Positions 1,832-46,200 of a DNA stretch of 64,000 nucleotides are shown here, piece after piece (positions within the stretch are counted from its first letter, which is position 1; every line of letters begins with the position of its first letter). Under the pieces are notes generated by a model that made no database searches, was not told the origin of the DNA, and saw nothing but the letters and a program-made list of their open reading frames with translations. The position numbers were made by a program, and so were the translations under genes. The stretch comes from Catajapyx aquilonaris (taxonomy: Eukaryota): assembly GCA_000934665.2 (NCBI GenBank), contig KZ538449.1, forward strand, positions 1 to 64,000, read 5' to 3'.

Positions 1832-4800
1832 CTGGATCTAATGTAGGTGTGAGACGGTACAGGTACATTTGGCTTAGACTGTCCATTAACATGACAAGAC
1901 TGTTTGTCCATGAAAACTGCACTGATGCCACGGTAATATTCCGTCGTGCCATCTTCAGAGGCAGTTCTTCACCACGCTGGTAGGTAGCATTCACGTTGAC
2001 AGTGATGGGCTGTAAAATATATTTCAGTCCACAGGGTACAAGAACCATTAATCATAGCCACCTGTCTACTCCTAGCCACTCTTTACTCGGTTTGCCAATG
2101 ACCATCATCAGCACAGTTTTTCAGTCTACTGATCAGACTTATTTCACTTGGAACTGACATTTTTGTTTATATTCACAACAAATAGGATCAGCTATTCCAG
2201 CATTGTCGAACTTCAGTCCCAACAATTTCTTACATGCATTCAGATTATGATACTTCTAATCTGGCAAATTCTGAGTTTATATTATCAACAATGCTTTTTT
2301 CCCCTGTGTCTCGAGGCATGATAGTTCTAAGATAATGAAATCAAATTCCATTCATGAATACTTGGCTTGTACCCAAGATTTTTTTCTTCCCCCTAAAGTC
2401 AAGTTGGATGCAGTGGAAAACACCACTGGATTCCGTAAGTGCTACACTTGCTTTTCACCAAAATTACAGACTAATAGCACCAGTAGCTTTAAAACTTAAG
2501 TATTTTCAAGCACCACTAACATTTTGGCACAACTTGTGTACCTACCAAAAATCCACTCAAAAAGTGATAACTCAGAACTCTTTTGACTCACATTTCACTT
2601 TACATCCACCTTAAGGGGGCACTACAGTCACCGACCTTCAAAAATTAGATTTTTAAAAATGTTTGAAAAAAATCAAGCGTCTTTCCTGCGTCGCACGCGT
2701 CCCGAAATTCAAAACATTGGCACGTCGGTACCCGACGCCTGGCAACCTTTCCTGGCAACGACCTTTGGAATCTTTTAACTTTAAACGTGTTTTTCTCAGT
2801 TTGACAGATTTGGACACTGCGGGCATCGCCCAGGCCACAAAAATTTAGCTACGGACTTCCCACTTCACCACATTATTTTATCCTCAAACATGGCGCTATC
2901 GTTCGGCCTAAAAGAATTAGCCTGCTCGAACTACTTCTATTTGTAACTTTAATAAATGCTTTCTCAAAACTGCTTAATTTTGTAGTTATCTTCTGAAATC
3001 GTCAAAAAAATACTAAAACGATTTCAAAAATTATAATTCTACGTCAAACAAAAACTACATGCTCACGGAAGCCTGAGGTCAAATCTGACGGTTGTAGGTT
3101 GACCCCAGCACCCTAAATCATGCCCGAAGTGGCGTGACATCACACCGCCATGGCAGCCCTTCGACACACGAATGTGATTCGATTATAGGCGCCATGGTTA
3201 TAGAAGACTCAGGTTAGGTCACTCCCCACCCACCCCCTGCCGAGGGGTTTTGCAAAGGGTGCTCACCTGAGACCGCCATGAGACATTTCGGAGCCACGAT
3301 AAGTGGCGACCCTACCGGACTATAGGCTGAACTTTATAGGTGCGAAGGGGAGGGCTACATGCTGGCCCAACATGGCCACCGGGGGCCATGTTGGGCCAGC
3401 ATGTAGCCCTCCCCTTCGTACCTATAAAGTTCAGCCTATAGTCCGGTAGGGTCGCCACTTATAAGTGTCCGTGGGTTGATAGGCGCTAATAGGTCTTTGA
3501 CTTATGTACATTCATGAAAATGAAGTCCCAACTTCCTGTCTCTAAGGGGTTTTTTTGGGGGCGATTTTTCACAAAACCCTTGATTTTGACTGTAGTGCCC
3601 CCTTACAGACCTGAGAATGCACAACCTGAATAACTACCCACTTAGGCAACTGTCCATGGTTATCATACCATGCTGTAAGTAACCAGGACTAACAACTACC
3701 CATGTGGATAGTTATCCAGGTAGAGCATTCTAGCAGCCAACGAAAGTAAGTTGAGAGAATCACTCAGAAAGTCAGTGGGGACAAGGGAGTTGGTGGGCTG
3801 CAAACTAGCTATGTGCTACCAGAGCAGCGGTGCCTTCGCATATCCGCACTTTTTCCAAGGATTGCAACAAAGTGTTTCACTTGCACATAATCTGAATAAA
3901 TATTCTTCAGCAGTGTGCAGTCAAAGAGCAACATCCAAGTATTGGTGCAATTATTAATTGTGCATTTGGTGCATTACCATTATATTAACATTAAATCTTG
4001 TGCCACAATACATATGTCAATATACACAGTAAAGTGATTCTTGCATTACCTGCTGTAAGGAATCCCGATAGAGGCAGAGAATACTCCCATCAACTAGAGC
4101 AACTACAAGTGGGCACGTAGATGGTGTTGCTGTTGCTACAGAGCACAATGGTGTGGCTATCCTTGCAACTGGTGATGATGTAGAGAAATGTGTGCTATGT
4201 TGCCACACCTGTAAACATACAAGGGTGTTATGTTACATGAACCAAGCAACACCAGTGATATTCAACTTACCACACTTTTGTACGTCTCATTAGTTTGATT
4301 TTGAAGAAATAGCTTATTGATGGGTACAACTTTTTCTCGCAATTCCCAAAGTTCAACTATACTGCCTGCCTTTCCACTTGCAGCTACAATTAATGCATCT
4401 GCATCTTCTCGAAATGCAAACTTAAGGGCACTGATATATGTGTCTGAAAGTGTCACAATTAGGCATGACCGTGGCTATAATTTCAAATTTACTACTCACA
4501 TGCATTGTCTTCCTTGCTTCCACATTGCAAAAAAAAGCTGGGTAAGGCCTGGGTGGTGACCACACACTTATCCTCATTCATTCGCACACCAACTCTGTAG
4601 CACTGGACTGGCAATGATATTTTACCACAGCTAGCAGCAATCAGAAAGTCACCATCTGAAATGTCACATAAACTGTCAATTTCATTCTTAATTTGCAATA
4701 ATGTTGCTCATACTTTTTGCGTAGCATGTATCTATGACTCTAATCCGACGGCGAACAGAACCAAGACTTTCGCTTGCTGTCAGAACCCTTTTATCAGGAG

Positions 4801-6512: not shown

Positions 6513-6621
6513 GGGTGGAATTTTCGTCGTACTGCTAGTTACTTTTAACTTAGCAGTACCATTGCATTACATTGGTACTGCTAAGTTAAAAGTAACTAGT
6601 AGTACGACAAAAATTCCACCC
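6513..6621. mobile_element. Short hairpin MITE with GGGTGGAATT termini
   Basis: ~50-bp inverted arms. A related copy lies at ~22124-22238. Confidence 0.7.
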
Positions 6622-7117
6622 CTTATCTTTTACTTACTCTACGGCATTTATAATTTAACTAAGGCAATACACGACAAATGCGTAGTACATTACAGTATTG
6701 ATGAGAAAACGTAGATTTATTGCTGGAGAGGAACAGTTGGATATGCCGAGGAGTCACATAATAATAATAACAAGTCGGATAATCGGGGTTCTACAGAATT
6801 ATCCTTACCCAACACTATCCCCACTACCCTGTTTGACCCCCTGCCTTTAATTTCTACATGCTTCATCCATTCCTTCAAGCCCCTTAGTTTTCCCCTTGTT
6901 AACCCCACTGCTCCCAGATCTAGCTGATGATATTCGCTTCTGTTCAACTTGCACGTACTCTGAAGATATGGACAAGATATTTTACAAATAATAACAGTTA
7001 TACTTACATGTTCATGCTGTACACTATATATATGTTTGGAACAATTTTCCACTTCCAGAAGTCGCAAAATTAATTTCCAAAAGAATTGCTGTAAAAACTC
7101 GAAATTTAATAACTACT

Positions 7118-7461
7118 GGGGAAGGCGCGGTGGCCGAAATGGTAACGTCTCGGCTTGCTGAGCGGAAGGTCCCGGGTTCGATCCTCGCCCGGGATTTCCC
7201 TTCTGCCTGCGTCAGTGGGTCTCTGCCCGCACCTAAGAAGGCGTCTTGGCAACCTAGCCTTCTGGGGGACTGTACATGACCCATTTCCGACATTGCTCTT
7301 GCACCTGCGTCCCCTCCCCAAAAATCCCTATCCTTACCCCATGTCCTTTCATCCTTGCACCGGAGTTAGAAGAAAAAGTTAGAAAATCGGAGGAAAAATG
7401 GTGCGGTAGTATTCCATCACCACCACCCCTATAAGGGCCCTTATATGTAAAAAAATTATTG

Positions 7462-7514
<53 letters not shown>
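7118..7514 (+). mobile_element. tRNA-derived SINE, family 1
   Basis: A-box GGTGGCCGAAATGG, B-box GGTTCGATCC, (ATT)n tail. A second copy is on the minus strand at ~37840-38190. Confidence 0.85.
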
Positions 7515-7689
7515 GGCCAACTGTTAGGCTGATTTAATTATGAAGTATATTAAAATATACAGAATAACAACCTTACGAATCTGCTGAAACTGTCGTACTT
7601 TGCGAGAATTAAATTAAGTTTGGAGTTTTCCAGAGTGAGAGGCAAGCTGCAGTAAGTATTAATCTAATTCACTAATTCACTAATTCTTA

Positions 7690-8017
7690 GGGGAGGCGGA
7701 GTGGTGCTGCGGTAACGTATGCGCCCACGGATGTTAAGGTCCCGGGTTCGATCCCAGCTCGGGGACACCCCCTTCATCTCGTGCAGAGTTCATTGGGTCA
7801 CCTTTGGCTTCGTCTCGGGTGGTATTTCCTACAGACTAAACCACCCGGGGGAGTTCACTAAAAATGGCCACGTAAAGACATTGCACTGCACCTAGCACAT
7901 CCCCTCCTGTCATCCTGCCCATGGGCCCGGGCGTTACGTATAAAGGTTCCAATGTACGTATGAGTATAAAATAAAGGTCCGTGCTATATACCTCAGATGA
8001 GGTCAAGCACTACCCGG

Positions 8018-8066
<49 letters not shown>
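7690..8066 (+). mobile_element. tRNA-derived SINE, family 2
   Basis: Head GGAGTGGTGCTGCGGTAACG..GGTTCGATCCC and (ATT)n tail. Near-identical copy at 22406-22772. Confidence 0.85.
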
Positions 8067-8068
<2 letters not shown>

Positions 8069-8583
8069 CTAATTCTCATGAAGTACGACAATTACACAAA
8101 TTCGTTGTAGCACAATTCTCAAGGTTGTTATTCCATATATTTTAATGTATTTCATAATTAAATCAGCCTAACAGTTGGCCGGTAGTAATTTAATTTCGAG
8201 TTTTTACGGCGATTCTTTTGGAAATTAATTTTGCGAAGCCTAGAAGTGGAAAATTGTTCTAAACATATTCATAGTGTACAGCATGAACTTGTAAGTATTT
8301 GCCACTATTTATAAAATATCTTGTCCGTATCTTCAGAGTACGTGCAAGTTGAACAGAAGTGAATCTCATCACCTGGATCTGGGAGTGAAGAGGTTAAGCA
8401 GAGTCCTTATCCCAGCCACATCCAAACCAGACCCACACACTTATAAATTGTGTTTTGGACATCCAAATTGTCCATTTTAAGTACTGTGACTGAAATCCTT
8501 TCCATAAATTCAGTTTATGCTGCATGGTATAGTATAAACAGTTCAAATGCCATTTTAAACGTACAGTAGTAAACACAACTTAA

Positions 8584-9455: not shown

Positions 9456-10237
9456 CAACGAGATAGAATAGGGTAGAGGCCGAAAAGGTCGGACATCTTT
9501 GAAGCAAAATGGCGGCCATCGGGCGGCCATGCCACTTCACGGCAAGAACTTTGAAATTATTGTAGTATCGCTAACCCTGTTCTCCTCTCCTGTCTCCTGG
9601 CCACGGCTCCTGGCCACGCTCCTGGCGGGACTAGGAAGAAAAGCCTGTCTGGGGACCAGCCCACGGACAGTTATACCCGTGGTTATACTACGTTCTGGCG
9701 TTATCACCTGCCGAGGCATTTTGCAGCGATTTCTCACCTGAGACCGCCATGAGACATTTCGGAGCCTCGACAAGTGGCGACCCTACCGGACCAAGGTTGA
9801 ACTTTATAGGTACGAAAGGGGGGGGGGGGCTACATTTGGGGGCCCAACATGGCCGCCGGCGGCCATGTTGGGTCATCATGTAGCCCCCCCCCTTTCGTAC
9901 CTATAAAGTTCAACCTTGGTCCGGTAGGGTCGCCACTTGTCGAGGCTCCGAAATGCCTCATGGCGGTCTCAGGTGAGAACTCGCTGAAAAACGCCCCGGC
10001 AGTGGGGGGGTGGGAGTGACCTAACCTGTCTTCTATAACCATGCTGGGGACCGTGCTGGGGACGTTTTTATTTATTCCCACCCCCCGCCAGGAGGCAGGA
10101 GTGTAGACAGAGGAGAACAGGGTTAGAACGGGTTAGAAATAAGGCCATTTCAAATGAGCGCATGTTCTTGCCGTGAAGTAGCATGGACGCCAAAGATCAC
10201 GTGACCTTTACGGCCTCTACCCTATTCTATCTCGTTG
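9456..10237. mobile_element. TIR element (CAACGAGATAGAATAGGGTAGAGGCCG) with a nested hairpin element
   Basis: 27-bp perfect TIRs plus subterminal inverted blocks. Flanks CTTTTTCC / CTTTCACC may be a decayed 8-bp TSD. Confidence 0.8.
9657..10043. mobile_element. Hairpin element with 8-bp TSD (family copy B)
   Basis: TSD CTGGGGAC at 9649-9656 and 10044-10051. Ends CAGCCCACGGACAG...TTCTATAACCATG. The ~290-bp palindrome is homologous to copy A. Confidence 0.8.
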
Positions 10238-11755
10238 CTTTCACCCTACATCCCCTGGCGGCGAAGAGTGAAAGCTATTGGTTTGGGCTACGGCCATGGG
10301 CTACGGTGGCGACATGCCGACATCAGCGCGCGGCATTTGTGTATGTATAGTAAGGTGTAGCAAGCACAGTGTAGAATGTACATAAAAGTGCAGCTGTGGA
10401 ATTTTAATATTTTTTAATTTAAAATCTCTACTCCGGTTCTGATCAGGATATTTAAGGTTAACTTTGTGGTAGAATATTATAACAAAGTAGCTGACAATGA
10501 TAACCTCTGCCCGCTGATGTCCTCACGTGCTTCGTCCTCAGTTCATGTTTCAGTTGGTCAGCAAGTCACCAGGAAAAATTCTTTCTAGTACCACCATCGT
10601 CAGTCCAACGCCTGCTTGACCCAGTGCCTCCTTGTGTGGACCACCCACTAGCTAGGGGACTTATTGCCCACCCGCAGCGTTGTCTTGCAGCAAGCTTGAC
10701 AAGCTTCTTATGGGTCCTCAGGGTCTCAAGTTTTGATTCTTTGCGTGGGTCCCACTACCAGCCACCGTAAAACATGGCTACCTGGGAGGAGGCCAAAGCG
10801 CCACAGGTATGATTACCTGCACAGTAATGCTACCCCAGTATATAATTTTTACAACACAGGTTAAGCTTCAGGTCTGTCCATGATGCCTGCCTTGAAAGAC
10901 ACATCAGAGTGGGTATTTGCTTTAGGTGTCTGGGGATTCTGTTAAAGGAGTAGTGCTTTCCTCCCCTTGAGGCAGAGGAGGTTATGGATATATGAGAGAG
11001 AATGAATAAATGCCAAAGTATAATGTAATGTTAGGATTGTCAAAACATTAAGCCAATTCAATTTTAATGACAGATGAGACTCCTTTCAGGCTAGGGTTGT
11101 CGTACAATCATACTCGTATGTTGTGCAAAGCTAGAGACCGGACTCACTCAGTTGTACAATATCTCTAGTAACCCCAAAGAGTTAGAGCAAGGTTATTGCA
11201 CCAGCAGGAATCTTCTGTGTAGTCAGCATGGCCTGTGGAACATGATTGTGCTGCATGACCATTACATAGTGAACCACCCATAAAAATGGATGCTGTTGCA
11301 TGATACCTGTTTTTTTCTCCACCATGGGAGATGTGGAAGTGACGTTCAGCTGCTATGACCACACCCATTAGCCATTCCCATGAAATCCATTCTGTCACTC
11401 ATTGCTGAAGTAGGCAAAAGTGATGAATCACATTTTTACTGGAGCTCATTTTGTGGCATCATGTGGTAAGCGTATGTATCCTTCACCCATTTTTCAGGTA
11501 AAGTGTGTCCTTCCAGATTGGTTACCAATTAGGGACGACGACAGTCTGTGGTAATAATAGACAAATAATACAAGAGGATGAAAGGCTATGTGGGGGGACT
11601 CCTGTGGAGGGCATGCGGCAATATCCGAGGTAGGTTTCTATAATTATTTTTATCCTTGTCTAGTATATCTTGTGAAATGTTTCTCGTAACATACTATATA
11701 ATAATATTATGATCTAAAAATTGAGAATATGCCAATTCTGTTGTACAGTGCATAA

Positions 11756-13765
11756 TGTGTGAACAATCCCATCTTCAGACTGCTGCTTTCAAAGGGGAAC
11801 TACCCTTACTCCATTACAAAGAATAAAAGTAAACTCCTTCACTCCTTTGCTTTGCTCAATACGTCAATGTTTGAAGTCTCACTGGTTCTACACTTCAAGC
11901 ACACTGGTAGGTAGTTAATAATATTGGTAATATTAATTAATGAAAGGGTTAATTTAAAAAAAACACTATCTCCCAAGAATCAGCATAGCCTTTGTTTTCT
12001 TTTTCGAGGAAATGATACTGACATATTGGATTCTTTCAAAAAAATAATCTGCTCGTTTACCGACAATTTTAGGTTGAAAATTGTTGCCGTATTCCCATAA
12101 CAAAGCGTGGCCCAGAATCCACTTTTTGAATAACTTAGTTTTGAAAAAATCAGTAAAAGTGTGCATGACATTTTTATCAACCCCTTTCAATGCCAATTTT
12201 CTTAAGGTGTTGGTAATGGCATATACCATCCAACTGGGTGAACTTGGTCCAAAATTTCCGTTTTACGAAGATATAAGTGTGAAGATATTAACCCACAACT
12301 GTGACATTTTTTTATTAGGTGTTGGACAATGCTGGCCAATAGGACGAGTATAAAAATATTTTTTTCCATGCACAATACTACTTAGGAAATATTATGACGT
12401 CATGGCCATGTCCACCCCACTGGTTGGGGTGGACTTGGCCATCTAATTTTCCCATTACAAATGAACTGCTCTGGGCAGGAAAATATTGGAATGGGTTAAC
12501 CTGGCCATTGCCATCCACATGGGACAGCTTGGCCAGTCCTTCTAATATGTGTTACCCGTAGGGGAGGAACCTAACCTTACCACAAGCATAGAATCTTTGA
12601 AATGTGAACTTGTATTACCCATTGATATATAACCCATATATAAAGTGTATCTTGCGAATGTAACCAGTTACTAAAATCAGAGTTCATGGTGACTTAACAT
12701 TAGGAGGATGTTATTGACCACTGAACAAGTGTAACTAGGTGGTATCACGTGTGAACTACAAATGTAACGTTCGCTCATACTCAGCGGTTTCTAGAGAACA
12801 ATGACTATGGTGTATCAGCATGCCCATGTAAGGCAATCCTTCCGGGGCGTTGGCCAGGGGGGATTGACCAAGAAGAGGGAGGAGAACGGCGAAGAACTGG
12901 AGAAACGGAGGGCATAAAAGGGACAACTGGAGTGACCAAGGGCAGTCTAGTCATGGGGTAGAAGTGAGAAAGAAATGCTGAGGTGAAGTGCCTGGAAGGA
13001 AGGAAGGAAGGAAGGAAGGAAGGAAGGAAGGACGTCCACTGGTGATCGCTGACGGAGGAGGACACGGGATAGTAGAGTATCGTTTCACTTGTGTGTGTGC
13101 TATTGATCGTGATGACCATCCAGTAAGAAAGTTATTGTAACATTAATTTTGAACACTACCATTGTAAAACCAACCCGAACATTAAAACCAATTTATTGTT
13201 ATTCATTGAAGTCGATCCACTTTATTTTGTATTAAAAGAACCCAGATCATTCCGCATGGAAAGGGAGGGTTAACCTTGCCAACTTTTAGTTGACCAGGGA
13301 ATGATAACACTTGGCCACTCGAAGGTGACGTGGGGGTTAACTTGGCCACCTGTTTTTAAACTAAAGAAATGGTGAATTTGATGATAGATAAGTGGTTCTG
13401 GATATTATAAGTTATAGGCTATTCATTCTGCAGTAGCAGAGGAGTATGGGCTTTGCACGGCATGTTTCCATGGCCATGTAGGGCGATTCCAGGTGAGATC
13501 AGATATCGATGTCCAGCATGCATTTTTTTAGAATTTTGAAATTTGGCATAGAGAAATGTTTTGTTCACATGTGATTGTGTGAATTTCTTCGATCTGGTAG
13601 CATCCGTAGGTCACGAGAAATGACCCTGTGACAATGTGCATGTGCTAAAATTTGATCATCACGTCAACCGCCATATTTCAGCAACTATTGGCACCACTGA
13701 CATCTTTGAAGTGAATTTCAATTCTGGAGGGTTTGCCCAATATTCCTGTACCAAAAATGAATTTT
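11756..13765. repeat. Dispersed repeat, copy 1, with pogo-like GGGGTGGACTTGGCCA motifs
   Basis: Highly similar to 24118-25425 except for ~700 extra bp at 12611-13310. Confidence 0.8.
12653..13256. mobile_element. Possible solo LTR
   Basis: TGCGAATG...CATTCCGCA ends, internal (GGAA)n and ATTAAA near the right end. Absent from the second repeat copy. No clear TSD. Confidence 0.35.
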
Positions 13766-17228: not shown

Positions 17229-17459
17229 AGCTCCACTAATCCGGCCATACCTGTCAAAGACTTGGAAGACATACTTCCAGACCAAACCAAATATTGGTTG
17301 ACAGATATGGTTAGTGGGCACCTTCATCAACATTTATTTTAAAAAAACATAATGGAAGGTAAAAAACATGGTTGTGACAAGCATGACCCTCTAGCAGGGA
17401 GAGAGATGAGTAGGAGTGCTGCAATGTCCAACGATGAATCCACAGCTTTGTGCCTAGGC

Positions 17460-17757
17460 CACAGGCTTATAATACTCCGGTTCGGACACTCCATTTCCTT
17501 TTCTGTGAGTTTAGTTGCTTCCAATTTGGTGCTGGTATTTATCCACAGTTCCTAAGGTGGTTCCTGCAGACGACTCTTTGCACTGCAGCTGGATATGGAG
17601 CACACTGGCAGAGTTGTACACCAGAACCACCTTAGGAACTGTGGAGTGACACCAGCACCTAATCGGCAACTGCCCCTCCCTGCAGGTGGCCGAGCTCAGC
17701 TCCATGGGGGTCTCCATATGGGTGGGGTAGAAGCTGGGTAGAAGTGTCAGGGGGCTG
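17460..17757. mobile_element. Hairpin element with 8-bp TSD (family copy E)
   Basis: TSD GCCTAGGC / GTCTAGGC. Ends CACAGGCTTATAATACTC...GTGTCAGGGGGCTG with internal inverted arms CCACAGTTCCTAAGGTGGTTC. Confidence 0.65.
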
Positions 17758-18196
17758 GTCTAGGCTGTGCTTGTCACAACAAACAGTTGGGAGACAAAAT
17801 TCCAGACTAAAACCGGCATTGGTATTCTCATATAGAAACTGCGCAGTTCTATGGACATAGGCAAGGTGGTCAAATGCATGATAAAAAGGTTGGAAAATGT
17901 ATCAGAACTTTACAAACTACTTATGTCAGTGCTTGTAAGCAGCAGTTCTACTCCTCACACCACTTCTAAGTGGTGTGAGGAGTAGGCCATTTCAGAAGTA
18001 TACACCACTTGCATTCTTATCTGCCCATACTACATGGCCCTTACAATGGGATATAAACCAGCCTTTACACTTTGTACTGTTACATCATGATGTATAGTCT
18101 AGAAAAGACACTAAGAATTAGCATAAAGGAAAATAAAGTTTCCTGTAGTACATGACACCTTATGATTTGTTGACTTCTTTGACCAACAATTTTGAA

Positions 18197-20742
18197 TTAT
18201 GAATCGCTCTCTGAATCCACAAGTGACTTAATTCTTGAATACATCTGCTTCGATTCCTCAGCCACCTTGGGTTTCATTGACCATTTACTGGCATATAAGC
18301 TTCTTGCACTACGTCTGCTGCGACCTGCAATGAGGAAAACATGAGTAACGGGATTATAATTCCACAGTGAGCCAAATAACCTTGTGATCCACAAATAAAC
18401 ATGGACTGTACTCACCTTCAGTGCTGTCAATAATGTTGCCCAAATCCAATTCAGCAATTTCTTGGGCTCTTTCACGTTTCTTCTTTAACTTCCTGCACTT
18501 CTCCAGAGTTGGCTTTCCTGATGATAAAAATACAGCAATTTCAATTTTTTTAGATACCTAACTTACAAGGTAGTCCAGAAATTTCAAACCCACTAATCCC
18601 ATGGAAATCCATTATTTCACATGGGTGTGGATCAACCATCATTTTACCAATCCCTATGCAACCAACACATTGTGTCCTGTTTAAGACCAATGAGAGAAAT
18701 GACTGAATTTCAAACTCATGTGCCACTCGGGTATAGCTGTGTCATTCAATAAATGGCAAGATTTACCACTTTTTTGTGTGACATTTATGAATCTAGGCAG
18801 CCCCACACAACTCCCACCCCTTTGTTATGATGACGTTAGTGTAATATTAGAGTCTGCGCTGACGCTGGCATCGCTCACTGGGGCACCCTCAACCCCATTC
18901 CGTAGATTCGCAACCAGCCACATGAATGAATCTGGCAGCCAGCTCGCCCCCAGTAGCCCCAATGAGCGATGCCAGCGCCAAATTCCCATGCTGGCACACT
19001 CTTATATTAATCTTACAGTATCGTAGACGTTGCGTGGGGGTGAACCTATAGGTGTAATTGCTGGTCTTGAGGAATATTTTTAGATTTCTACATTCATAAA
19101 CCAAATTCAAAATGTGCAGATCTCAGATATGTCATATTTAAGTTACTTTGAATATTTTGTAAGGTAGGGATACCATTGAAATTATTTCACAAATTTTCAT
19201 CCACTGGTAAAAATTTTGATGCNCCCCCCCAACTTGTGAAAGGCCGAGTTTTTTCTGGGTTTTAACTCCAATTACATTACACTCATTGTCAGTTACTCTG
19301 GGAGGATAGGCTGTGGAACCAGTTGTTGCAGGATTCAAGTAATTGGCTGTAAGATTCCCACCATATTCTGTTGTCACAATTACTTTGATAAGGTGTCTCT
19401 AGTTGCAAATATTTTGTACTCATTACTTTGTACCAAAAATTATTCCTATGATTAGGAAAACTAATTTTAAAGTTGTAACAAACCTTTTAACCCATTTTCC
19501 TCCAGCACATCAATGAGTTTCTGGACCTTAGCCTTTTTTGTACGGCAGTTGTCCCACAACTTTGGGTAGCTGCGAATGTGAATTCCTGCTGTGTTTATCA
19601 TCCGCTTCAGGCGCTTAATTTTTGGGTCATCATCTGGGTTCTGCAATTGCAAGACAGACTTATTAGTATCAAGCAAGCACAAGAAATGATCATAAAACTT
19701 ACGCTTTTCTTCTCTTTGCTTGTATTTTTATCACCATCATCAGAACTATCACTGCCAGAGTCATTGTCTTCCTTTTTGGTTTGTATTTTTTCTCCATCGG
19801 AATCAGAATTGCTATCTGATGCTTTAGCAGCTTTTCCGTTTCTTGTAGGTGATTTTTCTTTCTTTTGGACCTCATCATCACCACTTGCAGATTCTGAATC
19901 ATCCACTTCTTGTTTGAACCCAGCCTCTTTTCCAACTACCCGAGGATTTGCCCCAGACCTCTTGCTCTTCATTTCTTCAGTGTCACTGTCAGAATTAGGC
20001 TTCTTTTCCTTCTTGATACCCCTAGTTTTTTGTGTAACAGGTTTCTTTGGCTGACGTTTCATATGATCAGAAATTGCCTTCTTCTCCTTCCTGACACCTT
20101 TAGATTTGCGGGAAACTGACTTCTTAGGCAGCTCCTCTTCACTGTCACTGTCAGAACCTTTTGCTGAAGTCTTTTGCTTCCTGACACCTTTAGGTTTGCG
20201 AATAACTGACTTCTTTGGTTGCGCTTCTTCACTGTCACTGTCAGAACTTGCCTTTTTCTTGCTGACACCTTTGGGAGAAATTGAACCTTTTAGCTGCTCC
20301 TCTTCGCTGTCACTGTCAGAAGTTGCCTTCTTTTGCTTTTCTTCTTCACTTTCACTCTCAGAACTGTCCTTATTGCCTGCTTTGTGGCCATTCTTCTTTA
20401 TTCCACCCTTTGCCTTCAGGCTTCTGTTGGCTAAGTCATTGTCATTTTCTTCAGTGATTTCCTCATCACCTGAGCTGGCTGACTTGTTTCTAGCCCTCTT
20501 CATTAGGATCTTGTCTTCAGCCTGGGATGACCTCTTCCGCTTCCTGTCAACTCCCCCATCACTGTTTGATTCCTCTCTTTTTACCCGGGAGAGTGGCATG
20601 TCATCACTATCATCACTTTTGTTGCCATTGCCACCAGACCCACCATCACTATCTGAGCTGACTGTCTTTCCTTTGTCATTAGGAGTCACTTCTTTGAGGG
20701 ACAGCTCCTCCTCTGACGATCCAATGCTTCTCCTGTCGGCAC
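18197..20742 (-). CDS. HIRIP3: HIRA-interacting protein 3-like histone chaperone with CHZ domain, 3' exons
   Basis: Exons 19703-20742 (K/S/D/E-rich low complexity, SDSDSEEE repeats), 19484-19640 (DDPKIKRLKRMINTAG..KLIDVLEENGLKG), 18416-18517 (KPTLEKCRKLKKKRERAQEIAELDLGNII) and 18197-18324 (stop TAA). Splice phases are consistent and the C-terminal motif is typical of HIRIP3/CHZ proteins. Confidence 0.8.
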
Positions 20743-20801
20743 CTTAGAGGGGGAATGGAAATGATTTATAACCCCTACACCACCTTACTCTTGCTAAATA
20801 C

Positions 20802-22723: not shown

Positions 22724-22772
<49 letters not shown>
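22406..22772 (+). mobile_element. tRNA-derived SINE, family 2
   Basis: Copy of 7690-8066 with TSD TATTTAACCTTGG. Confidence 0.85.
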
Positions 22773-27283: not shown

Positions 27284-28128
<845 letters not shown>

Positions 28129-28148
28129 TATATATATATATATATACA

Positions 28149-28560: not shown

Positions 28561-28584
28561 TATATATATATACACACACACACA

Positions 28585-29331: not shown

Positions 29332-29344
29332 TATATATATATAT

Positions 29345-31399: not shown

Positions 31400-31433
<34 letters not shown>

Positions 31434-31493
31434 TAATAAATACAAAATAAATAAAATATAATAATATAAATACCGGTATATTATATATTATTA

Positions 31494-31536
<43 letters not shown>

Positions 31537-33019
31537 ATGCCCTCCCCCTCAGCCCATGCCCTTATCCTAGCTTGTATAATCATGGCCCAAATCTTGTAAA
31601 CCCCGTTTAGCAGTGCCACCCCCCTGCAATTTTTTACTTCCTCCCTTGAACCACCCTCATGAATAGGATAGATTTGTGCCTCCTTCCACTGCTCAGGTAT
31701 CATCTCTTTCTCCCACACCTTTCGGAACAAGTTCCATATCTCCTCCACCATCACTTCCCCCCCTTCTTTTAGAAATTCCTTTAGTACCGTCCGTTCCAGG
31801 AGCCTTCCTCTTTTTTAGCCTCCTGATACAATCTTCTATCTCCTTCTTCGATATTTCCCAATCCCATCTCTGGTCTGCCTCTTCGACCCCACCTTCCCCG
31901 AACTTTACTACCCTTTTTTCCCTATGCCCCCCCAGTAACCCAACAAAATGATCCCTCCATTCCCTTTCCAGTTTGAGTTAGGTGCTGATTCCCTACACTT
32001 CGTCTTTCCCCTCAATTTTTCCCACATTTCCACCTCTGTTTTTACTTTTTTCCAATCGTCCACCATTTTATTCACTTGTTCATTTTTCTTCTCCATGCAT
32101 AATTTGCCATATTCTTTCTTTCTTTTAACATACTCAAGTCTGTCTCTTTCTTTCCCCTCCTTTTTATACACCCTAAGACTTCTCCAAACCATTTCCCTTT
32201 TAATTTTACAGTCTCTGTCAAACCAACCCGCCCTACTCTTTTTTTCTTTTCGTCTCTTGAATCTCATCCCCACAGCTGCCCGTTCTACCCATTTGTGTAT
32301 CCCTATGCCCATGTCGTCGACTGTGTCCTCCTGCATCTTTCCCACGTTTCCGTCTTGCAGCCTCTCCCTGTACTAGTCTCCTTTCCCCTCTATGCATCTG
32401 TATCTTTCTCCCTCATCTCTCGTCTCCTGGGCCACCTCTTTCTTTGTTCCCCCGTCCCTGATTGTCACCTCCAGCGGCTGATGGTCCGACGCAATCCTCG
32501 TTCCCACTTTCATGTCTTTGATTTCACTCCACCCATCCTCGTCCACCACTGCATAATCAATTACCGATTTACCTTGTGGACCAATGAACGTTAAATCCCC
32601 ATCCCTGTCACTCTCCGTCCTTCCATTTATCACCAGCATACCCCACACTGACCATGTGTCCAATAATATCTCCCCCTCTCTGTTGACCGTCTTGTCGACT
32701 GAATGTCTGTCCAGAATGTCTCTCTTTCACCTGCCTCTAAGGCTCCTCCTTCCCCTATCCTTCCATTAAAATCCCCACACACATCCAACACACCCTCTCT
32801 TCTTCCTCCTCACTCCGCCCTCACCTCCTCCAACTCCTTCCCCCACCCTTCAACATTTTGCACATACACCCCCAAAATCTTCCACCTTTTTCCTTAGAAG
32901 GTCGTTTCTAAACTCACACCCTGTTTTTCTGTGGTCATTTTCACCTACCTCGCTCTTCTCCACCCAACCACTATCCTATCCCCCCTTTGGTCCTTCCCCA
33001 CTTCTTCTCATTTGTTGCC
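29345..33019 (-). mobile_element. Decayed LINE (APE endonuclease plus reverse transcriptase ORF2, frameshifted)
   Basis: Fragments LTFIGPQGKSVIDY..IASDHQPL (APE), FVDLKSAFNKVNR, GVRQGCPLSPLLF, FADD, YRYLG (RT) and CLLCGEGEENMGHIVRDC. The 3' tail probably resumes at 27241-27286. Confidence 0.9.
30959..31532 (+). mobile_element. SINE family 3 with expanded AT-rich tail, inserted in the LINE
   Basis: 16-bp TSD TAATATGCCCTCCCCC at 30943 and 31533. Confidence 0.85.
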
Positions 33020-36000
33020 CTGGGCCTAACTCATCTTCTGGATCCAAGAGCACTCTTGGCTTCTTTGCTCCGATGCGCTTCGCTGCAGCCTCTTGGAAAT
33101 ATTTATATACCATCATGTTTTTGTACTTGTATCTAGGTTTCTCCCCAGAGTCATGATTCGTGATACTAGAAACTCCGTCTGCTTCTTTCTCTCCAGACAA
33201 TTTCGCTCTCTTCCCATCTGTTTTATCAGAGCTACTTGACACTTCAGTTTTTTGGTCACTATGTTGTCTTGCTTCGGTCGTATCTTGATCAACATTCACT
33301 TCTGCTGCAGGGATGTCTGGGGGTGCGTGCTCTGCTGGCAGCTCATAATCTGCTCTCAAGTCTACCTCTTCACAATCTACATCAGTTAGCTTAATTATAC
33401 CTGCCAACTGAGGAGCCACAACTTTCCGCATGTTTAATGTTGATTGCTGCCAAATTACAAGAAATGTATCATTACATTGAAACATCCCGCGTAAGAGTGT
33501 GGGACTTACCTGTAAATGCCAAAATGTTGGAGAATCAATTCTAGCATCTTTCAAGGAGGCTTTCCAGGTGGCCGAGTGTGACGTAAAGTCATCCAATTGC
33601 GGCTCTGGTAGAAAGCAGGAGTAGTCTCCAGACACACTATCACCCAGGAAGCCATGGAAGTCATCACCTTCAAATTCTTTGTCATCATTCAATGACTCCA
33701 ACTCCTTTTCCATCAGACTGTAAGACATTTGCAACAGTGTTAGCATGCGGTTAAATTCTCTGAAATTATTAACAAATGGCACTGGCACGAATACCTTCTC
33801 TGTTCGGGCATTTCCCTCTTGACTCGAATGGTCCATGCCCGGATAACAGACAGGGAATTTCCAGGGTCATCCTTGATAAATCCTGGATTTGCTTCAGATT
33901 TCTCTGGCAAATCATTCACACTGTAACAGTCAGTGACATATTGATATGAGTCAGCTTGCATAATATTTCTCATAACAGGTAGCAATATTAAACTACTCTT
34001 TACAGTAAATATTATTCTCAGTTGCAGACCCTTCTCCATATGACAAATTCTTCAGTAAGGTTAGTGGAGTGTCATCATATCGTACATAAAGAAGTGGAAG
34101 TGGGATAATTATTATCTATGCATTCCAGTACCTTAAGAGTGAATACATGATCAATGTTAACTCCAAAATAAATGGATGATATCCATTGTTAGTTAGGCTC
34201 CGTTGGAGTAAGTGCAACCAGAATTTGATTAGGTGCAGTTTGAAGGCATGCTACTTCCTCAGTTATGAGCAAGTGATAAAAAATGTAACGGACAATATAC
34301 CTTACCTTATTGGCTTTCAAAGTATTATTATTATTATTTATTATTTATTTATTCCATGGGCTCGCGCCCTTAGGAAGCCTTCCCTTACAAGAATATACAG
34401 AATAATCACAAACGTCACTCAATACCGGATAACTTCTTTATCCATAGATAGAAAGGACCCGGCTCTCATTAAGTTAAGACAATATCAACAAAGCGGAGCA
34501 GCCGGGTAGCTTCCCTAAAGTAATCATGCACTTTCGTCATTAGTTGGTGGTGGGGGGCAACAAAAAGTAATCTGGGGTACAATTTAGGTGGAGCAGCTAC
34601 ATCATCAAGGCAATTAATTCTTGTTAAATGGAAAAATTGGCATTCAAACAGAAAGTGGTATAAAGAAAAAGGTTCAGCATCATTACAAAGTGTACAGGTT
34701 TCTTCTGACCATGGGTATTTGTACCCGTCAAACCAGATGTGCAATATATTCAATCTTAAATTAGCCCATAGTTGCGAGTGACGCAGGCTTTCAAAGTAGC
34801 CTATTGAGTAACATTCATCTAGGTGGGTGCTCGCTGCCACACTTGCTCCGCAATATGGGGTAAGTGCGATTGTGGCATTCTCTCAGAGTAATATACACAG
34901 CTTGGGTTGCATAGGACCACCACCACAAAGACACAAACTTCCTATGTCAGTATGTTTTTCCCAAATAAAAAAATGCCAAGAAGTTCTTACACGACGAACT
35001 TTTATTTACTGCTCCGCAACAGGTTGGCTAACAGTACTGGCATTATCTGATTAAAATGCATTGTGTGGAAGTGTTTTCACGCCAATGCATTAGCATGTCA
35101 CCAGTCGCGGAATATCTATTGGTTACCACACCAAGATGTCTTGTTGCCTCTTTTGTCGACCGCTACCTTTATTCATCCAAGAGTGCATTGCAATTTGTTC
35201 CACATACCGGTATTAATTGTTTACGGACTTGCCCCTAACCATGTTTAGTCAGGGGCAAGTGCGTCACCTCTTTTAAAAACCAGCCTGATTATGACACCAA
35301 AAGGGAACAATAACAGCATGATAGTGCACCTCAACCTCTTATGTACAGTACCAAAGAGGTTACGCAGCATGCGATTTAAGACTCGTCAAAAATTCTGCCA
35401 AAGATTCTTACATACTCGCCGGAAAAGTTAAAACACCACCTTGAGCTTGGTGACCATTTTTTGGCTATGTTTCGAAAGGAAGATTATCGTGCTACTGTTA
35501 GCAGAGTAGGCAAAGGTCGTTGTCAACGTTTACGTATATTTCCGATGCTCCTGCCACCTTGTGCTATATATTACCGTATTTACACGCATATAAGACGCAC
35601 CCTGGTTTTGAGGCGAAAAATCGTGGAAAATCAGTTGGTGACTCATATAAGACGCACCCAGATTTATTGCCGTAGTTTGGGAACGGGCCTCGAGCTACCT
35701 CGTGTGCAATGCATGTGCGTGTGGAATCCATTACAATACAGTAAAGGGGGGGGGGGGGGGGGNAGTGGAAAATGGGACAATGCTACGCATCTGAAACGTA
35801 TAGGTGGCAAGGTCACACTGGAATTGTGCACGAGTGTGGACGGGGAGAGCATAACAATGGAAGTGAAGGAGAACGCAGGTCGTACCGGGCCGATTTCAAG
35901 AGGAAAGTGATCAACTGTGCTGACAGTACATCAAACCGACAAGCTTAAATTTTTCAATAAACGATTTTCACGATTTCTCATGGGTTTCACCCGTTGTGCC

Positions 36001-38403: not shown

Positions 38404-38779
38404 AACTCTTTTGCAGATCAGCACAAATTTGTCATCACCAGGAACCCTGAAACATAACAAAATAACTTACTCAAAACATATTTACTGGCTTTAACTTTTT
38501 GCTACTCCATACTCACTACTCTCTGCCATAAATACTAGACTCCAGATTACTTGACTCTGTTTATTACTAAAATAAATACTATTACTGGTACTTTCGAATA
38601 ACTCAGTTATTAGGAAATACATGTTTTAAATCCTAGTCAGAAGAAATTGAAGGCCCCTGAAAAGCATGTACCAGTTGTCACTCTCACCATAGAAAAATAT
38701 CAATTGGTTGTATCAGCTTCCATTATGAGAGTTTGATGCAATGGTTTCCTCATCACAACAACAAAAAGGAACATTGTAT

Positions 38780-39178
38780 TAGCCCCCGGACACTCCCCCT
38801 ATAATAAATTCTTATCGCCTGATGGGGCGTTTTGTGGGAGGTGCTCACTTGAGAGCGCCTTTCACTGATGTAAACACATGTGGCAACCCTACCTGACTGC
38901 GCTGAACTTAGGTGGAAGGGAAGAGTCGGTCAAAATTAAGAACCTACCTATTCTACCTATGTTCAGCGTAGTCAGGTAGGGCCGCCACATGTCGTGTTTA
39001 CATCAGTGAAAGGCACTCTCATCATTGGTCAAAATTAAGAATCTCATACGAGTATACTCTGAGTATACTGGTATGAGATTCTTAATTTTGACAGCCTTCC
39101 CTTCTACCGCACCGCACCGCAAAATGCCCCGTCAGGCAATAAAAGGGAGTGACCAGACCTAAGTATTCTAAGGCCATG
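38780..39178. mobile_element. Hairpin element with 8-bp TSD (family copy C)
   Basis: TSD CATTGTAT at 38772-38779 and 39179-39186. Ends TAGCCCCCGGACAC...TATTCTAAGGCCATG with nested palindromes. Confidence 0.75.
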
Positions 39179-41189
39179 CATTGTATCATCCTCCAAAATC
39201 ACCTGAAACTTTCTTCATTGACCCTCAGGGCCTGTTCTCACCTGGCCACTTCAGTCGCGCGTAACAGCCACTCCCCACTGCAGTCACTTTCGTCTGGCAC
39301 TGCAAGCGCTCGAGTCGGCCACTGCACTGGGGCAGAAGCTCACCACAGCAGGTGGGCGAGTCGTATGCAGTATGGAAATCCAGTGAAGACCATGCACTAC
39401 TGATACTCCTATTGAAAATGAAGAAAATAATATTGCAGGCAACACAGGAAAATTCAAGTTCGAAGGACTGTGCCATACCGTATTTGAGGATTCTTTATCC
39501 AAAATTCCGCAATTCGAAAGTTTTTAAAATAATGCTGACATGACACGTCACAAACGGAAAATTCCATGTGATTGTGACATGACAAGCGTCATTTCCTGTA
39601 CATAGGCTACTGTATGTGCATGTATAAACGTTACTAAAAATTTATACAAATATTCTTAAATCCGAAAAATTGCAGGTCCCAACTCCCAAGCATTTCGGAT
39701 GAAGGATTCTCAGCCTGTAGGGGAGAGCTCCCCGCTCTCCCCTACAGGGTTCAGACGCGGGGTTAATCTGGACACCTTCAAATTTCCCACTTCCTGCATA
39801 GTACATAGACATCTAGCGGGCCACACTGGAACGTCTACATCATACGCATTACCCATTGTGCTGTGGTTGAGATCGGTCCATCAGTTTCACGGCAAGAATA
39901 GTTTTTCGTTTTTTGACCTCTCTGATGTAATATTTCGTGACGGCATCGTATGGTTCTGACGCCTCGCTTCGCATCATAGGTGCGCGGGAAGTCGTACATG
40001 CCGAAGTATGCCTACCTGACATTGAATCGGGTGTGTTATCTGTGGCATGCTTTCGTTAACAAAGGCGCGAGAAGCCATGTTTACTGCGAATGCGCAGTGG
40101 GGAGGAATCGGACGCAGTGTCAGCAGTGTCCGAATCCTCCCCACATGCATTGACGCAGTGTCCGAATTCTCCCCACATGAGTCCTAACTCATGATATAGC
40201 CACATGATATAGCCTATGTATTCAGTTTCAGAGTAATAAACTAAAGGATATATATTTCTATCCCATTAGCACTCGAATGTAGGCCTATCATTCTGTCCGA
40301 AACCGCCCCACATCTTGTCCGGATCCACCCCATATATGGGGAGGGTTCGGACACTTTACATAACCGCATTTAAAAATGCACTTAATAATGGACTTATATA
40401 AGGACATGCCTTAGTGATAATTTTGAAGATTAAGGACGTACCATTTATGTCATGCATAAAACGCTACTTGAGAAGGTTAAATTTAAGTATAAAAAATTAA
40501 AACGTAAAAACTGTCCGAACCCTCCCCGCTCTCCCCTACCAAGATCTGAGGCAAGATGATTAAATGTTTTTTCGATATTTTCAGCAGCTGATGCATCCCA
40601 AATAGTGGGATGGGCCTCGACTTCCTATATAAAGTCATCGACATTTTATTTCCTGAAGTAATTGCAGAATCCACGGCGGTAAAGTGCCCTTTCCTCGCGG
40701 CATGGTGAACTAGCATGGACATATGACTGAACCTGTGGTGGACGTCAGTGGTCTGTGGCTGTGGCTCCGCGTGAATGCACCAATGCAAAGCAATGGTCTG
40801 CTACCTCGCGGCCTCTGGCCTTGAGCGCTTGTAGGAGCAAAGACGCTTGCGCCTGCCACTCAGTGCAGCATATAGAGAAGCACTGTCCATGGGTTAGATG
40901 TCCCCTTAAAAGTGGTCATGTTCGTGACTGTTACCTGGTGCTTCTGTGGGCCTGCAGCTGAAAGCCTTAGGCCCCCAACTACAACTTATTAATCGTCGGA
41001 GCAGCTGGTGTACTATAACCTCACAATGGGCAACATATCACGTACTACATCAGTGCTATTATTCTAACACGACCAAAAAAAAAAATCACAGCATGGAACG
41101 GCAGCACCCCTTTTCTGTGAACTCACATTCGAGTGTTGGAATATCCTTCCGCAGGTGCATCCCACTGTTCCGGGCTCTAGGCTACTTAC

Positions 41190-43211: not shown

Positions 43212-46200
43212 TTAAATAATTAAGACCTGGCCATTAAAACATGAACTTCCTTGCAAGATGACACAACACACTAGTTCAGCAACCTTTTTCTCCTCTCCAG
43301 AGGTGACATAGTGAATGAGAGCAACAACTTTTTTCAAATGTTCATATTGCTTCGTCAGTTGAATGCCATACTGATGCATGTCAAAGGCAGACATGGTGTA
43401 GATAGCACTGTCACCATTCCCTGCAGTATGATCAACAATGTGCACTACAGTCCCTGGGGTGGTCACATCCAAAGCAGTGGTCAGCTCAAGGCTGCCATTT
43501 GTTAGGGATAGTCCATCGGTGTGAAACACTACTGCATTGTTGAAGGGAACTGTTGGTGGAGATACATCATATGAACATAGTGATGTCTCAAGCCGTCCCA
43601 CACGAGCATCGAGCTTCTGTTGTACTTCAGTCACAAGGAGATTCTCATCCGGAGCAATGATACATACACTATTGAGTGTCTCTGAAAGGAACTTGCATTG
43701 TTTAAGGTTCCAGTTGGATAGCCTTGCTGGATATGTACTCAGGATGGCTGACCTTTCAGATAGCCTTCGATTGCATATATGTCCTTTTTGAATGTCACTT
43801 TCCACAAGTCAGGGGGTCCTTCCAATAATTTTGCCTTAACTCCCGCATATACATCTACCAGGTGAAGACATTCAGTTCCATAATCCAAGTCATATTCATG
43901 GCACTGAAAAAAAAATTGTTGGTGTGTTGGTACAAATTCCATGCTGGTGGTTTACAACATAGTTATAGGTCTGGTATAAGCTCACCTTGTCATATGCTGT
44001 GACTAGTAGTTCATATTGAAATGCCTGTGGCATTTCACTAGCTCTATGTTTGGATCGTTCAAATGCAGTATCCAAGTATCCTTCGTAAGTAGTTGACACA
44101 ATGGTAGATGTCAGGGGTCGTATAGCACCTGCAGCTCCACACTGGTATGCAGTCAGTGCCAATTGTGTGACAAAATCCATAGGAAGGATAGGACGAACGG
44201 CATCATGGACCACCACTACATCTGGACGTTCCTCTGTAGAATAAATGGTATTGTCATGAAAGAATAGCTCTCCATTATTTTTATAAACAGCTTACAGATG
44301 CAATAATAAATTATTAGAAATTAGAATAAAAGAAGAAAAAGAGCTGGGAAAGAATCAGAATGCAGCAGTGTACTTATGCACAATGCACCTCCCAATTACT
44401 AGTACGGCGCCCTTAAAGTGTAGAGGGCCGGATGGTGGAATATGAGGCAAAAATGACAAAGTGCATGCATGTTGTATCAGGATTCTTACTCTGACGGGAT
44501 TGGATCACTTTTTGCACATGGACGATGTGTTAGGGGACCAAGACAAGGGACCAGAAGCCCCCAAACTGACTTTTGCTTCTTTATAGCTGGCGGAACGGAT
44601 GTGACGTCATGAAACTTTGATGGCGCCGCACGCATTAACTACACAACGGAGCCCAAAACTAATTGCACATCCCTATATTAGTTTTATGAGTACTATCAGT
44701 CTACCTGGCTATTGTCCGCGAGTTTCCCTTCACCCTGTATATTGATGCAGAATATACCCAATGACAAAAGAGAAAAATCTGCACTTTGCAGCAGAAAAAG
44801 GCTGGTTAATTTTTCATGTGAATGCATATTTGGGGAAGTAAGACTCCCTTAATCTACCATGTCAACCAAGTCAGCCCCTTGTCACTTGTATACCTTATAC
44901 ATTGCTCCCCCCGTGAGCTTAGCTGATCTCCCCACCGAGGGAGGTTGGCCACGGGCGGCACTCGAGTCATGCACCAAGGTGGTAGCACCTTACCTTGTGG
45001 CCAATTCTGAACTATTTCGCAGGGGGTGTTGATGCCTTTATGTCTGGTTCAGGATTGTCCGCTAGGTAAGGTGCTACCACCTTAGTGCATGATTCTAGCG
45101 CCACTCATGGCCAACCCCCCTCGGTGGGGGAGATCAGGTAAGCTCACGCAAAAAGAGGGAGTGTGACCGGGGGCTGAACCAAGTTCTGATCTGTATCTGT
45201 AGAAATTTTAGCTCATGATTATTGTTGGCTGTCCGTTTGCAAGGTACCTTCACATCGCTTAGAACTGTAGGGCAGATAGTTATGTTTTTACATATTTTTT
45301 TCCTCTGTATGCATGAGGGCATGATTTGTATGAAAATCCGAATTATGACATCTCGAGTCCAAAAAAGTGGGTCTTATTTTGAATATAAAAGAATATTTCG
45401 AGCTTAACTGCATATTTTGGCTTTAGCGATATATTTGGAAAATTTCCTGCTTTTTCCTTCATTAATCTTGTTATCTACGTATATCTATATAAATTAAGTC
45501 AGGCCCTGCAAAAATAAATCCTCGCTGGAACATCGTAAACGATGTAGCTGAGATCCTGTGTGGGCACTCTGCAACTGCGGTGCCTAAGAAATACACTCCC
45601 CAGCACATCTCATGATAAAGTTTGCACCAATAACCACATGTGATGCGGAGCAGTCATTTTCCAAGGCCACTCTCAGTGAGAGAAGGCAGCAATTGACTGC
45701 ATCAAATTTGGAACAAATAATATTGTCTCTCATTGCCACTTCAATGAAAATAGTGAAATTGAAGACGATTGATGAAGTGGTGATTAAGCTGTGATGTTAC
45801 TACTGTAAGAAATAAACCTCTTGTGTGAGATAAAGTCTCAAGTCCATGGCATATAATTTGCATGTATTTATTTTTCAGGGTAATGCAAGAATAAATCGCA
45901 AATTGAATGCAGGTTTGAGAGAATATTTCACTATTTTTTGGGGAATATTTGCATGCATATTGTGACCTTTTTAAGAGTATAACTATCCACTCTCTACGTA
46001 AAACAGAGTACCAACTCCACATGGGAGCATCTGAAATATCCACCAATACAAATCAATTCTAAAAAAATTTCCACAGATGTTGTGTAGAAAAGTCTCATTT
46101 TAGGTTAGTTTCTTTTCCTAAACAGGTAGGACCTAGAATTGAAAAAGGTAGCTTGAACTGTGAACAATTGCAACTACTGGAAGAACAGTGCGATATCCCA

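What the first reader, a model, noticed from the sequence alone, without database searches (positions are those of the whole stretch)
3193..45176. Short hairpin elements with 8-bp TSDs, shared mostly asymmetric termini and different internal palindromes
Seen in sequence: five ~290-400 bp elements (3193-3478, 9657-10043, 17460-17757, 38780-39178, 44872-45176; possibly an older one at 18798-19042) each have an 8-bp direct repeat (ATAGGCGC, CTGGGGAC, GYCTAGGC, CATTGTAT, AACCAAGT). One end reads (C/T)A(A/G)CCC..GACA. In four copies the other end is a different motif (CATGGTTATAGAAGAC..GGTCACTCCC-like), while copy F has CAGCCCC at both ends. Each interior is a long fold-back: A and B are close homologues, C is distant, E and F look unrelated. 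Inference: non-autonomous elements moved by a transposase that needs short ends rather than classical TIRs. 8-bp TSDs with asymmetric ends are reminiscent of Zisupton/KDZ elements described mainly from fish and fungi; the assignment is not established here.
Basis: partly seen in the sequence, partly recalled or inferred. Interest (0 to 1): 0.72.

Follow-up and report, generated by a model that had tools for sequence, protein, structure and literature searches.

The report
P-type transposon family with mismatched ends
These short hairpin repeats are gene-less leftovers of a P-element-type jumping gene in an arthropod-type genome, unusual because most copies move with two different tips instead of the matching inverted ends such elements normally carry.

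Summary
The elements are real. A, B, E and F have exact 8-bp target duplications, C has 7 of 8, and D has no clean one. In the genome the two tip motifs occur at least 1048 and 689 times (controls 7 and 0). Of 95 paired copies examined, 75 have an exact 8-bp duplication. The mobiliser is P-superfamily, not Zisupton/KDZ. The A/B/E hairpin arm runs straight into the 5' leader and 3' trailer of decayed THAP-P transposase genes, and a 401-bp copy keeps both stubs. The target motif matches the Drosophila P motif. The hairpin is therefore the parent's two long subterminal inverted repeats, left after the gene was deleted. E is a homologue of A and B; C, D and F interiors are not detectably so. F belongs to a family with matching tips. 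What is unusual is a 31-bp tip paired with a 15-bp tip that share only CA and a GGWCACT motif 24 and 8 bases in. The closest precedent is BuT5/repleta P. No intact transposase was found. The scan probably noted this family before on other DNA (e1-7507041, filed near hAT).

The parts
3185..3192 (.). Left 8-bp target duplication of A (right copy 3479-3486)
   Evidence: empty-site joint 3184 to 3479 skips 294 bases with 8 shared letters
3193..3478 (+). Element A, A/B/E family, L tip at 3193 and R tip at 3478. Part of the R arm is deleted; hairpin 3299-3462.
9649..9656 (.). Left 8-bp target duplication of B (right copy 10044-10051)
9657..10043 (-). Element B, A/B/E family, R tip at 9657 and L tip at 10043. 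Arms 9708-9826 and 9884-10002 are the subterminal inverted repeats of the P-type parent.
10052..10063 (.). Four bases (CGTG) plus a third copy of B's target 8-mer: footprint-like remnant of an excised CACG-type tip, or a 12-bp local duplication
   Evidence: (joint skips 407)
17452..17765 (+). Element C (17460-17757) with 7-of-8 duplication, divergent L tip and R tip. Its interior palindrome is unrelated to A/B/E; a relative lies at L106.
18798..19042 (.). Element D, old fold-back with R-like imperfect ends and no clean duplication; membership uncertain
38772..39186 (-). Element E (38780-39178) with exact 8-bp duplication; rearranged member of the A/B/E family, R tip at 38780 and L tip at 39178
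44864..45184 (.). Element F (44872-45176) with exact 8-bp duplication; member of a separate family with R-type tips at both ends (short imperfect TIR). It lies between two IspD-like exons.

Best explanation
The elements are non-autonomous members (MITE-like deletion derivatives) of one P-superfamily lineage. The A/B/E parent is a THAP-P transposase element with inverted arms of about 125-175 bp set inside two unlike tips: L, about 31 bp, starting CAYGG, and R, about 15 bp, starting CAGCCC. Deleting the gene brings the arms together as the hairpin (shown by intermediates). The transposase most likely binds family-specific subterminal repeats that start about 30-45 bp in from both tips through its THAP domain, and reads the terminal CA and the GGWCACT motif with its core. 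It then cuts out the element and inserts it at a palindromic target, giving 8-bp duplications (inferred from Drosophila P biochemistry). Recombination between arms keeps them matched, makes mosaics and flips the interior relative to the tips (inferred). C and F share the tips and probably use sister transposases (inferred from tips only).
For: (1) A second, young family with the same tip types forms a deletion series of 296-569 bp. Its longest member, L130 (2522 bp, both tips, 7-of-8 duplication), carries a THAP gene starting 315 bp inside the R tip. (2) Its THAP relatives in the genome head P-type transposase genes. In L221 the R tip (interrupted by a nested insert) and the A/B arm run into the 5' leader and start codon of a gene with THAP, PF21787, PF21788 and PF21789 hits. 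Its only solved match is Drosophila P transposase 6P5A, E 7e-11, and the FDEM, VSD and QDALE acidic residues are present. (3) L215 is a 4.5-kb decayed P gene with the arm at both ends (125 bp, 83%). (4) A 23-mer that extends the arm occurs 11 times against 0 in the control. The loci continue into a shared 5' leader or a shared 3' trailer, and the 401-bp L261 with an exact duplication holds both stubs. (5) R-type tips also stand upstream of THAP-P genes in L218 and L223 with different flanks. These genes and L221 fall in one clade, support 0.969, apart from the genome's other P transposases. (6) 75 exact duplications give the target motif WTRGTCNNGACYAW; the mean match to GTCCGGAC is 4.09 of 8 against 1.84 +/- 0.13. 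The Drosophila P motif is ATRGTCCGGACWAT (PMC2577343).
Against: No intact transposase and no long element with both tips, a duplication and a whole gene was found. L221 has frameshifts and no recognisable 3' end. L215 has a degenerate 5' tip and has lost its 3' tip. L130 lacks the catalytic core. Three clade members (L216, L217, L222) show no arm or tip near the gene. The F-arm profile hit none of 14 long-element loci tested, so C, D and F are tied in by tips only. The hobo (hAT) target motif GTNCGNAC is similar to P's (PMC3276498). The central palindrome of A and B does not appear in the long elements aligned. Binding and cutting were not tested.
Confidence: 0.88

Rival explanations
1. hAT-superfamily MITEs (8-bp duplication, YAR-type start; some hAT-derived proteins carry THAP, recalled). 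An earlier scan note filed a probably identical family near hAT.
For: 8-bp duplication; the genome has at least 134 hAT dimerisation-domain matches; the hobo target motif resembles ours.
Against: Among the 30 best of the 134 hAT loci (1.5-kb flanks), the only strict R tip belonged to a short MITE copy in L082, and no L tip was found. The tips and arms are joined to PF21787/8/9 genes.
Confidence: 0.04
2. Zisupton/KDZ elements.
For: Zisupton and Dileera make 8-bp duplications, and fungal Kyakuja has CA..TG termini without TIRs (PMC12730594, passages).
Against: Kyakuja makes 7-bp duplications. PF18758 found 0 candidates (weak because the control rang nowhere). The joined coding sequence is P-type.
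Confidence: 0.02
3. The MITEs have another, unseen mobiliser, and captured pieces of host P-derived genes or landed beside them.
For: Clade members without ends exist (L216, L217, L222). The MITEs are abundant, so proximity alone would mean little.
Against: The same arm-plus-extension junction leads into the 5' leader in 5 loci and into the 3' trailer in 5 loci. Two further tip families show the same link independently (L130; L218 and L223). The target motif matches P.
Confidence: 0.06

Closest known systems
BuT5 MITE and the repleta-group P element of Drosophila buzzatii and D. mojavensis (PMC3698922; abstract and passages read)
   Same: P-type THAP transposase parent; MITE shares its ends; 8-bp (there 8-9 bp) duplication; true TIR reduced to 3 bp with sub-TIRs inside.
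   Different: There the 16-17-bp sub-TIRs end 32 and 30 bp from the tips, nearly symmetric, and the MITE interior is unrelated to the parent. Here only CA is shared at the tips, the shared 7-bp motif ends at 31 versus 15, and the MITE is a hairpin made of the parent's long arms.
Galileo, the long-TIR foldback member of the P superfamily (PMC3688188 and PMC4168063; passages read)
   Same: Long inverted arms, two-arm derivatives without a gene, about 40-bp terminal segments conserved across families with family-specific sequence further in.
   Different: Galileo's TIRs include the tips and it makes mostly 7-bp duplications (GTATTAC). Here the tips are outside the inverted repeat and unlike, and duplications are 8 bp.
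Drosophila melanogaster P element (PMC7776569, passages and section 6 read; PMC2577343 passages)
   Same: Domain order THAP, RNase H, GTP-binding insertion; D/D/E; terminal G at both 3' ends; 8-bp duplication; 14-bp palindromic target motif; unequal spacing of an inner site at the two ends.
   Different: P has perfect 31-bp TIRs, and its asymmetry lies in a 9- versus 21-bp spacer behind them. Here the tips themselves differ, with a 16-bp offset of the shared motif.
Kyakuja/Dileera/Zisupton (KDZ) (PMC12730594, passages read)
   Same: CA..TG termini without TIRs (Kyakuja); 8-bp duplication (Zisupton, Dileera).
   Different: No KDZ gene found or joined to the ends; the joined gene is P-type.

Membership tests
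P superfamily | Transposase with THAP, split RNase H and GTP-binding insertion domains | tested here: met
   L221 exons hit PF05485, PF21787, PF21788 and PF21789; 6P5A E 7e-11. The gene is decayed.
P superfamily | Catalytic D/D/E | tested here: met
   Two aspartates align with 6P5A. QDALE and FDALN are seen; their mapping to D528/E531 and F443/D444/N447 is by spacing, an inference.
P superfamily | 7-8-bp target duplication with palindromic 14-bp motif | tested here: met
   75 of 95 paired copies exact at 8 bp; none of 94 within one mismatch at 6, 7, 9 or 10 bp; motif WTRGTCNNGACYAW
P superfamily | Element ends joined to the transposase gene | tested here: met
   L221, L215, L257, L258, L261, L130, L218, L223; shown for the A/B/E and Y families, by tips only for C and F
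Canonical P-element family | Matching terminal inverted repeats of 13-32 bp | tested here: not met
   L and R tips share only CA. Met only by F's family. A P element with a 3-bp TIR is on record.
P superfamily | GTP-dependent, 17-nt staggered cleavage | not testable with these tools
   Only indirect footprint-like remnants
Galileo | Long TIRs that include the tips, mostly 7-bp duplication | tested here: not met
   Arms are subterminal; duplications are 8 bp
KDZ/Zisupton | KDZ transposase (PF18758) between the ends | tested here: not met
   Long elements carry P-type genes. The genome search gave 0 candidates, weak on its own.
hAT | hAT transposase between the ends, short TIRs | tested here: not met
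   No tips flanking the 30 best of 134 hAT loci within 1.5 kb; no TIR in L/R copies
Catalogued Repbase/Dfam family | Consensus match to an entry | not testable with these tools
   Neither library is held

The most novel reading that the evidence does not exclude
This P lineage treats its two ends differently. The 31-bp L tip has P-like geometry (16-17 outer bases plus an inner R-like segment) and is cut with a long stagger. The 15-bp R tip lacks the outer bases and is cut with little or no stagger, an 8/24 pairing rule built into the tips. Hints: the inner half of L resembles an R tip. Fillers between 8-bp repeats are enriched for the L-type 4-mer (10 against 0.54 expected) but not the R-type (1 against 0.95), and 9- and 11-nt L remnants occur. 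R/R families exist here, and an L/L mini-element lies beside a sister transposase in a metagenome record (L303), so L/R may be a hybrid of two TIR types that one enzyme accepts. Against: other CACG-tipped families could leave those remnants, one-sided CAAG fillers are enriched too (9 against 0.98), and the test was post hoc.
Probability: 0.25. Interest if true: 0.75.

Novelty: new variant of a known kind. Interest (0 to 1): 0.52.

Why it matters
It assigns a high-copy repeat without terminal inverted repeats, which TIR-based annotation would misfile as hAT, Zisupton or unknown, to the P superfamily. It also shows how its hairpin arose. P transposase is the one GTP-using transposase with a 17-nt staggered cut, and how it pairs unequal ends is open. 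Natural L/R, R/R and L/L versions of one lineage give a ready test of what each end must supply.

Tried and rejected
KDZ family search: 0 candidates, control silent. hAT loci: no flanking tips in the 30 fetched of 134. The 30 best of 87 PF21787 loci (1.5-kb flanks) showed no tip; wider flanks of those loci were not read. L130's interior is single-copy apart from a nested unrelated MITE, and its THAP exon found no close parent. Reading L130's L-side interior as a second gene: no Pfam hit, and it is homologous to the non-coding 3' region of L215. GGWCACT as the THAP site: its reverse complement matches the P site TAAGTGTA 7 of 8 in some R tips but only about 5 of 8 in L tips (site), so it is left open. 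Two automatic tallies mis-paired tips because of loose patterns and were replaced. The first footprint control (shuffled tips, 76 against 21) was ill-matched and showed no enrichment; searches used 4-mer frequencies instead. Frequent insertion into other members' tips: only 2 of 86 by a formal test, so not claimed as a rule. Metagenome scan: 9 relatives, 8 without tips. Viral contigs: no relative, and 8 isolated 15-mer matches without a second tip, taken as chance. Sequencing runs: no RNA holder listed; DNA holders are one sample, so no population polymorphism was tested. One tree was built but failed at display and was redone.
Full report
Observation. The five elements stand at the given coordinates. 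A, B, E and F have exact 8-bp direct repeats and C has 7 of 8. D has no clean duplication, and the tip profiles miss it. E's interior is homologous to A and B (z 17.9 and 12.5 against 200 shuffles; profile E 1e-17). C, D and F are not detectably related to them, and C-F is borderline (z 2.9). Contigs of one DNA sample contain joined forms that skip A plus one 8-mer and B plus 20 bases, at depths far above single copy. Both therefore inserted into other repeats whose empty copies confirm the boundaries. The host looks arthropod-like, an inference from the homologues; F lies between two IspD-like exons.

Genome-wide. The genome holds 1048 exact matches to an R pattern (control 7) and 689 to an L pattern (control 0). 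In all fetched own-genome loci (L001-L302, seeded by B, the R pattern and a second family, so not a random sample) there are 114 distinct strict R tips. Of these, 95 pair with an L tip: 75 have an exact 8-bp duplication, 11 have one mismatch, 8 have more and 1 has N. None of 94 comes within one mismatch at 6, 7, 9 or 10 bp. The other 19 are unpaired: truncated, at contig ends, long, R/R or missed by the pattern. In the least biased subset, the first 30 places, 27 of 31 R tips paired, 18 exact and 5 with one mismatch. A 75-bp copy without a long hairpin has both tips and an exact duplication. F heads a separate family. Of 17 places fetched, those resolved have R-type tips at both ends; 5 have an exact duplication and 4 have one mismatch. 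L/L copies are rare: two have imperfect duplications, and two are inverted duplications that run into the flanks.

Finding the mobiliser. KDZ and hAT searches gave nothing joined to the tips. A pattern shared by C's R end exposed a young family (59 matches) with a deletion series of 296-569 bp and no long hairpin. Its longest member, L130, is 2522 bp with both tips and a 7-of-8 duplication. It holds a two-exon THAP gene that starts 315 bp inside R, and a 569-bp copy independently keeps its start codon. The THAP relatives in the genome (11 besides itself) mostly head P-type transposase genes.

Junctions with the hairpin arm. In L221 an R tip, split by a nested insert, and the A/B arm run into the leader and start codon. 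The gene hits THAP, PF21787, PF21788 and PF21789 and Drosophila P transposase, keeps the acidic residues, and is frameshifted. L215 is a 4.5-kb decayed element with the arm at both ends. A 23-mer that continues the arm occurs 11 times (control 0). Aligned, five such loci continue into a common 5' leader and five into a common 3' trailer. L261 (401 bp, exact duplication) has both stubs between an R and an L tip, and L257 and L258 carry the arm beyond a P C-terminus. R lies at the 5' end in some loci (L221, L261, L130) and at the 3' end in others (L215, L257), as expected if the interior flips between long arms (inference). L218 and L223 have an R-type tip upstream of related genes. A FastTree of 56 core segments puts L221, L218, L223, L216, L217 and L222 in one clade (0.969), distant from most other P transposases of the genome; three duplicate rows and segments under 85 or 130 residues were left out. 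The 23 database homologues include P-type proteins of ticks, a wasp, an ant and aphids.

Target motif. The 75 exact sites give WTRGTCNNGACYAW, with A/T in 137 of 150 outer positions. Drosophila P has ATRGTCCGGACWAT with most information at the outer positions (PMC2577343, passages). Hobo is GTNCGNAC (PMC3276498, passages), so this supports P but does not exclude hAT alone.

Mechanism. Shown: ends, duplication, junctions to a P-type gene, deletion intermediates. Inferred from P biochemistry (PMC7776569, passages and section 6): GTP-dependent cut and paste, contact of GTP with the terminal G (both tips normally end in TG), HTH binding to the inner half of the end, and THAP binding further in. 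In each family an inverted repeat starts about 30-45 bp from both tips and differs between families while the tips are shared. This parallels Galileo, where THAP sites lie inside the conserved terminal 40 bp (PMC3688188, passages). In 36 copies the two arms of one copy differ by a median 2.8% against a mean 17.7% between copies. Only 10 of 36 have their own arm as the strictly closest, some rows were cut short by the script, and some are mosaics. Arms are thus homogenised and exchanged (inference). The central palindrome of A and B is unexplained.

Footprints. B and a copy in L131 are followed by four bases and a third target copy. Across the fetched DNA, 8-bp repeats spaced by 4 bases (69 blocks, 116 fillers) have the L-type 4-mer 10 times (0.54 expected), the R-type once (0.95) and CAAG 9 times (0.98) (a stricter count gave 4 and 7). 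Two longer L remnants of 9 and 11 bases occur. This is post hoc, and other families could be the source.

Comparison and novelty. The closest precedent is BuT5 with the repleta P element: 3-bp TIRs and nearly symmetric sub-TIRs (PMC3698922, abstract and passages). Galileo supplies the precedent for long arms (PMC4168063, passages). Zebrafish Pdre2 has 13-bp TIRs (PMC10983969, passages). KDZ features come from PMC12730594 and PMC9297572 (passages); PMC7599744 (passages) added nothing. I found no description of a P element with unlike tips in the searches (0 papers). The library lacks most subscription papers, no supplements were read, and Repbase and Dfam could not be checked, so the family may be catalogued. 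That some hAT-derived proteins carry THAP is recalled, not checked. An earlier scan note (e1-7507041) describes what is probably this family on another piece and files it near hAT; my evidence contradicts that assignment. Verdict: P superfamily, new variant with mismatched tips, interest 0.52.

Noticed in passing
L303:2262-2345: In a metagenome record, an 84-bp AT-rich mini-element with the L tip as a 14-bp TIR and a 7-of-8 duplication sits 15 bp after the stop of a sister P transposase (59% to L221).
   Followed up: partly
L130:641-3162: 2522-bp deletion derivative of a young second family; keeps a short two-exon THAP reading frame with two DHMY repeats and may act as a repressor-like product.
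   Followed up: partly
L216, L217, L222 (G000 contigs C584, C76, C378): P-derived genes of the same clade with long open frames, no ends seen and an altered third catalytic motif; candidates for domestication.
   Followed up: no
L082, L142, L190, L220, L242, L252, L260, L107: 8-bp repeats spaced by CAAG/CTTG (9 against 0.98 expected): probable excision footprints of another 8-bp-duplicating family.
   Followed up: partly
L045, L049, L121, L130, L290, L295: Family members inserted into or beside the tips of other members; the tips contain a near match to the target motif.
   Followed up: partly
L264, L265: L/L copies whose inverted repeat runs on into the flanks: inverted duplications or assembly artefacts.
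   Followed up: no
window 43899-44291 and 49864-50175 (-): Exons of an IspD-like gene (PF01128); F and other repeats lie between them.
   Followed up: no
window 19607-20743 (-): 378-aa acidic, Ser/Lys-rich open frame with 75-90-bp repeats and no Pfam hit.
   Followed up: no
window 30208-33866 (-): Decayed non-LTR retrotransposon (RVT_1 hit) interrupted by a SINE-like insert with an (ATT)n tail.
   Followed up: no
window 20799-21183, 27379-29345, 48125-49418, 6899-8397: Several other fold-back and MITE families with long inverted arms, some with nested tRNA-like SINEs.
   Followed up: no
window 11749-13608 and 24113-25268: Two 94-98% identical copies of an interrupted repeat of about 1.2 kb, some 12 kb apart.
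   Followed up: no
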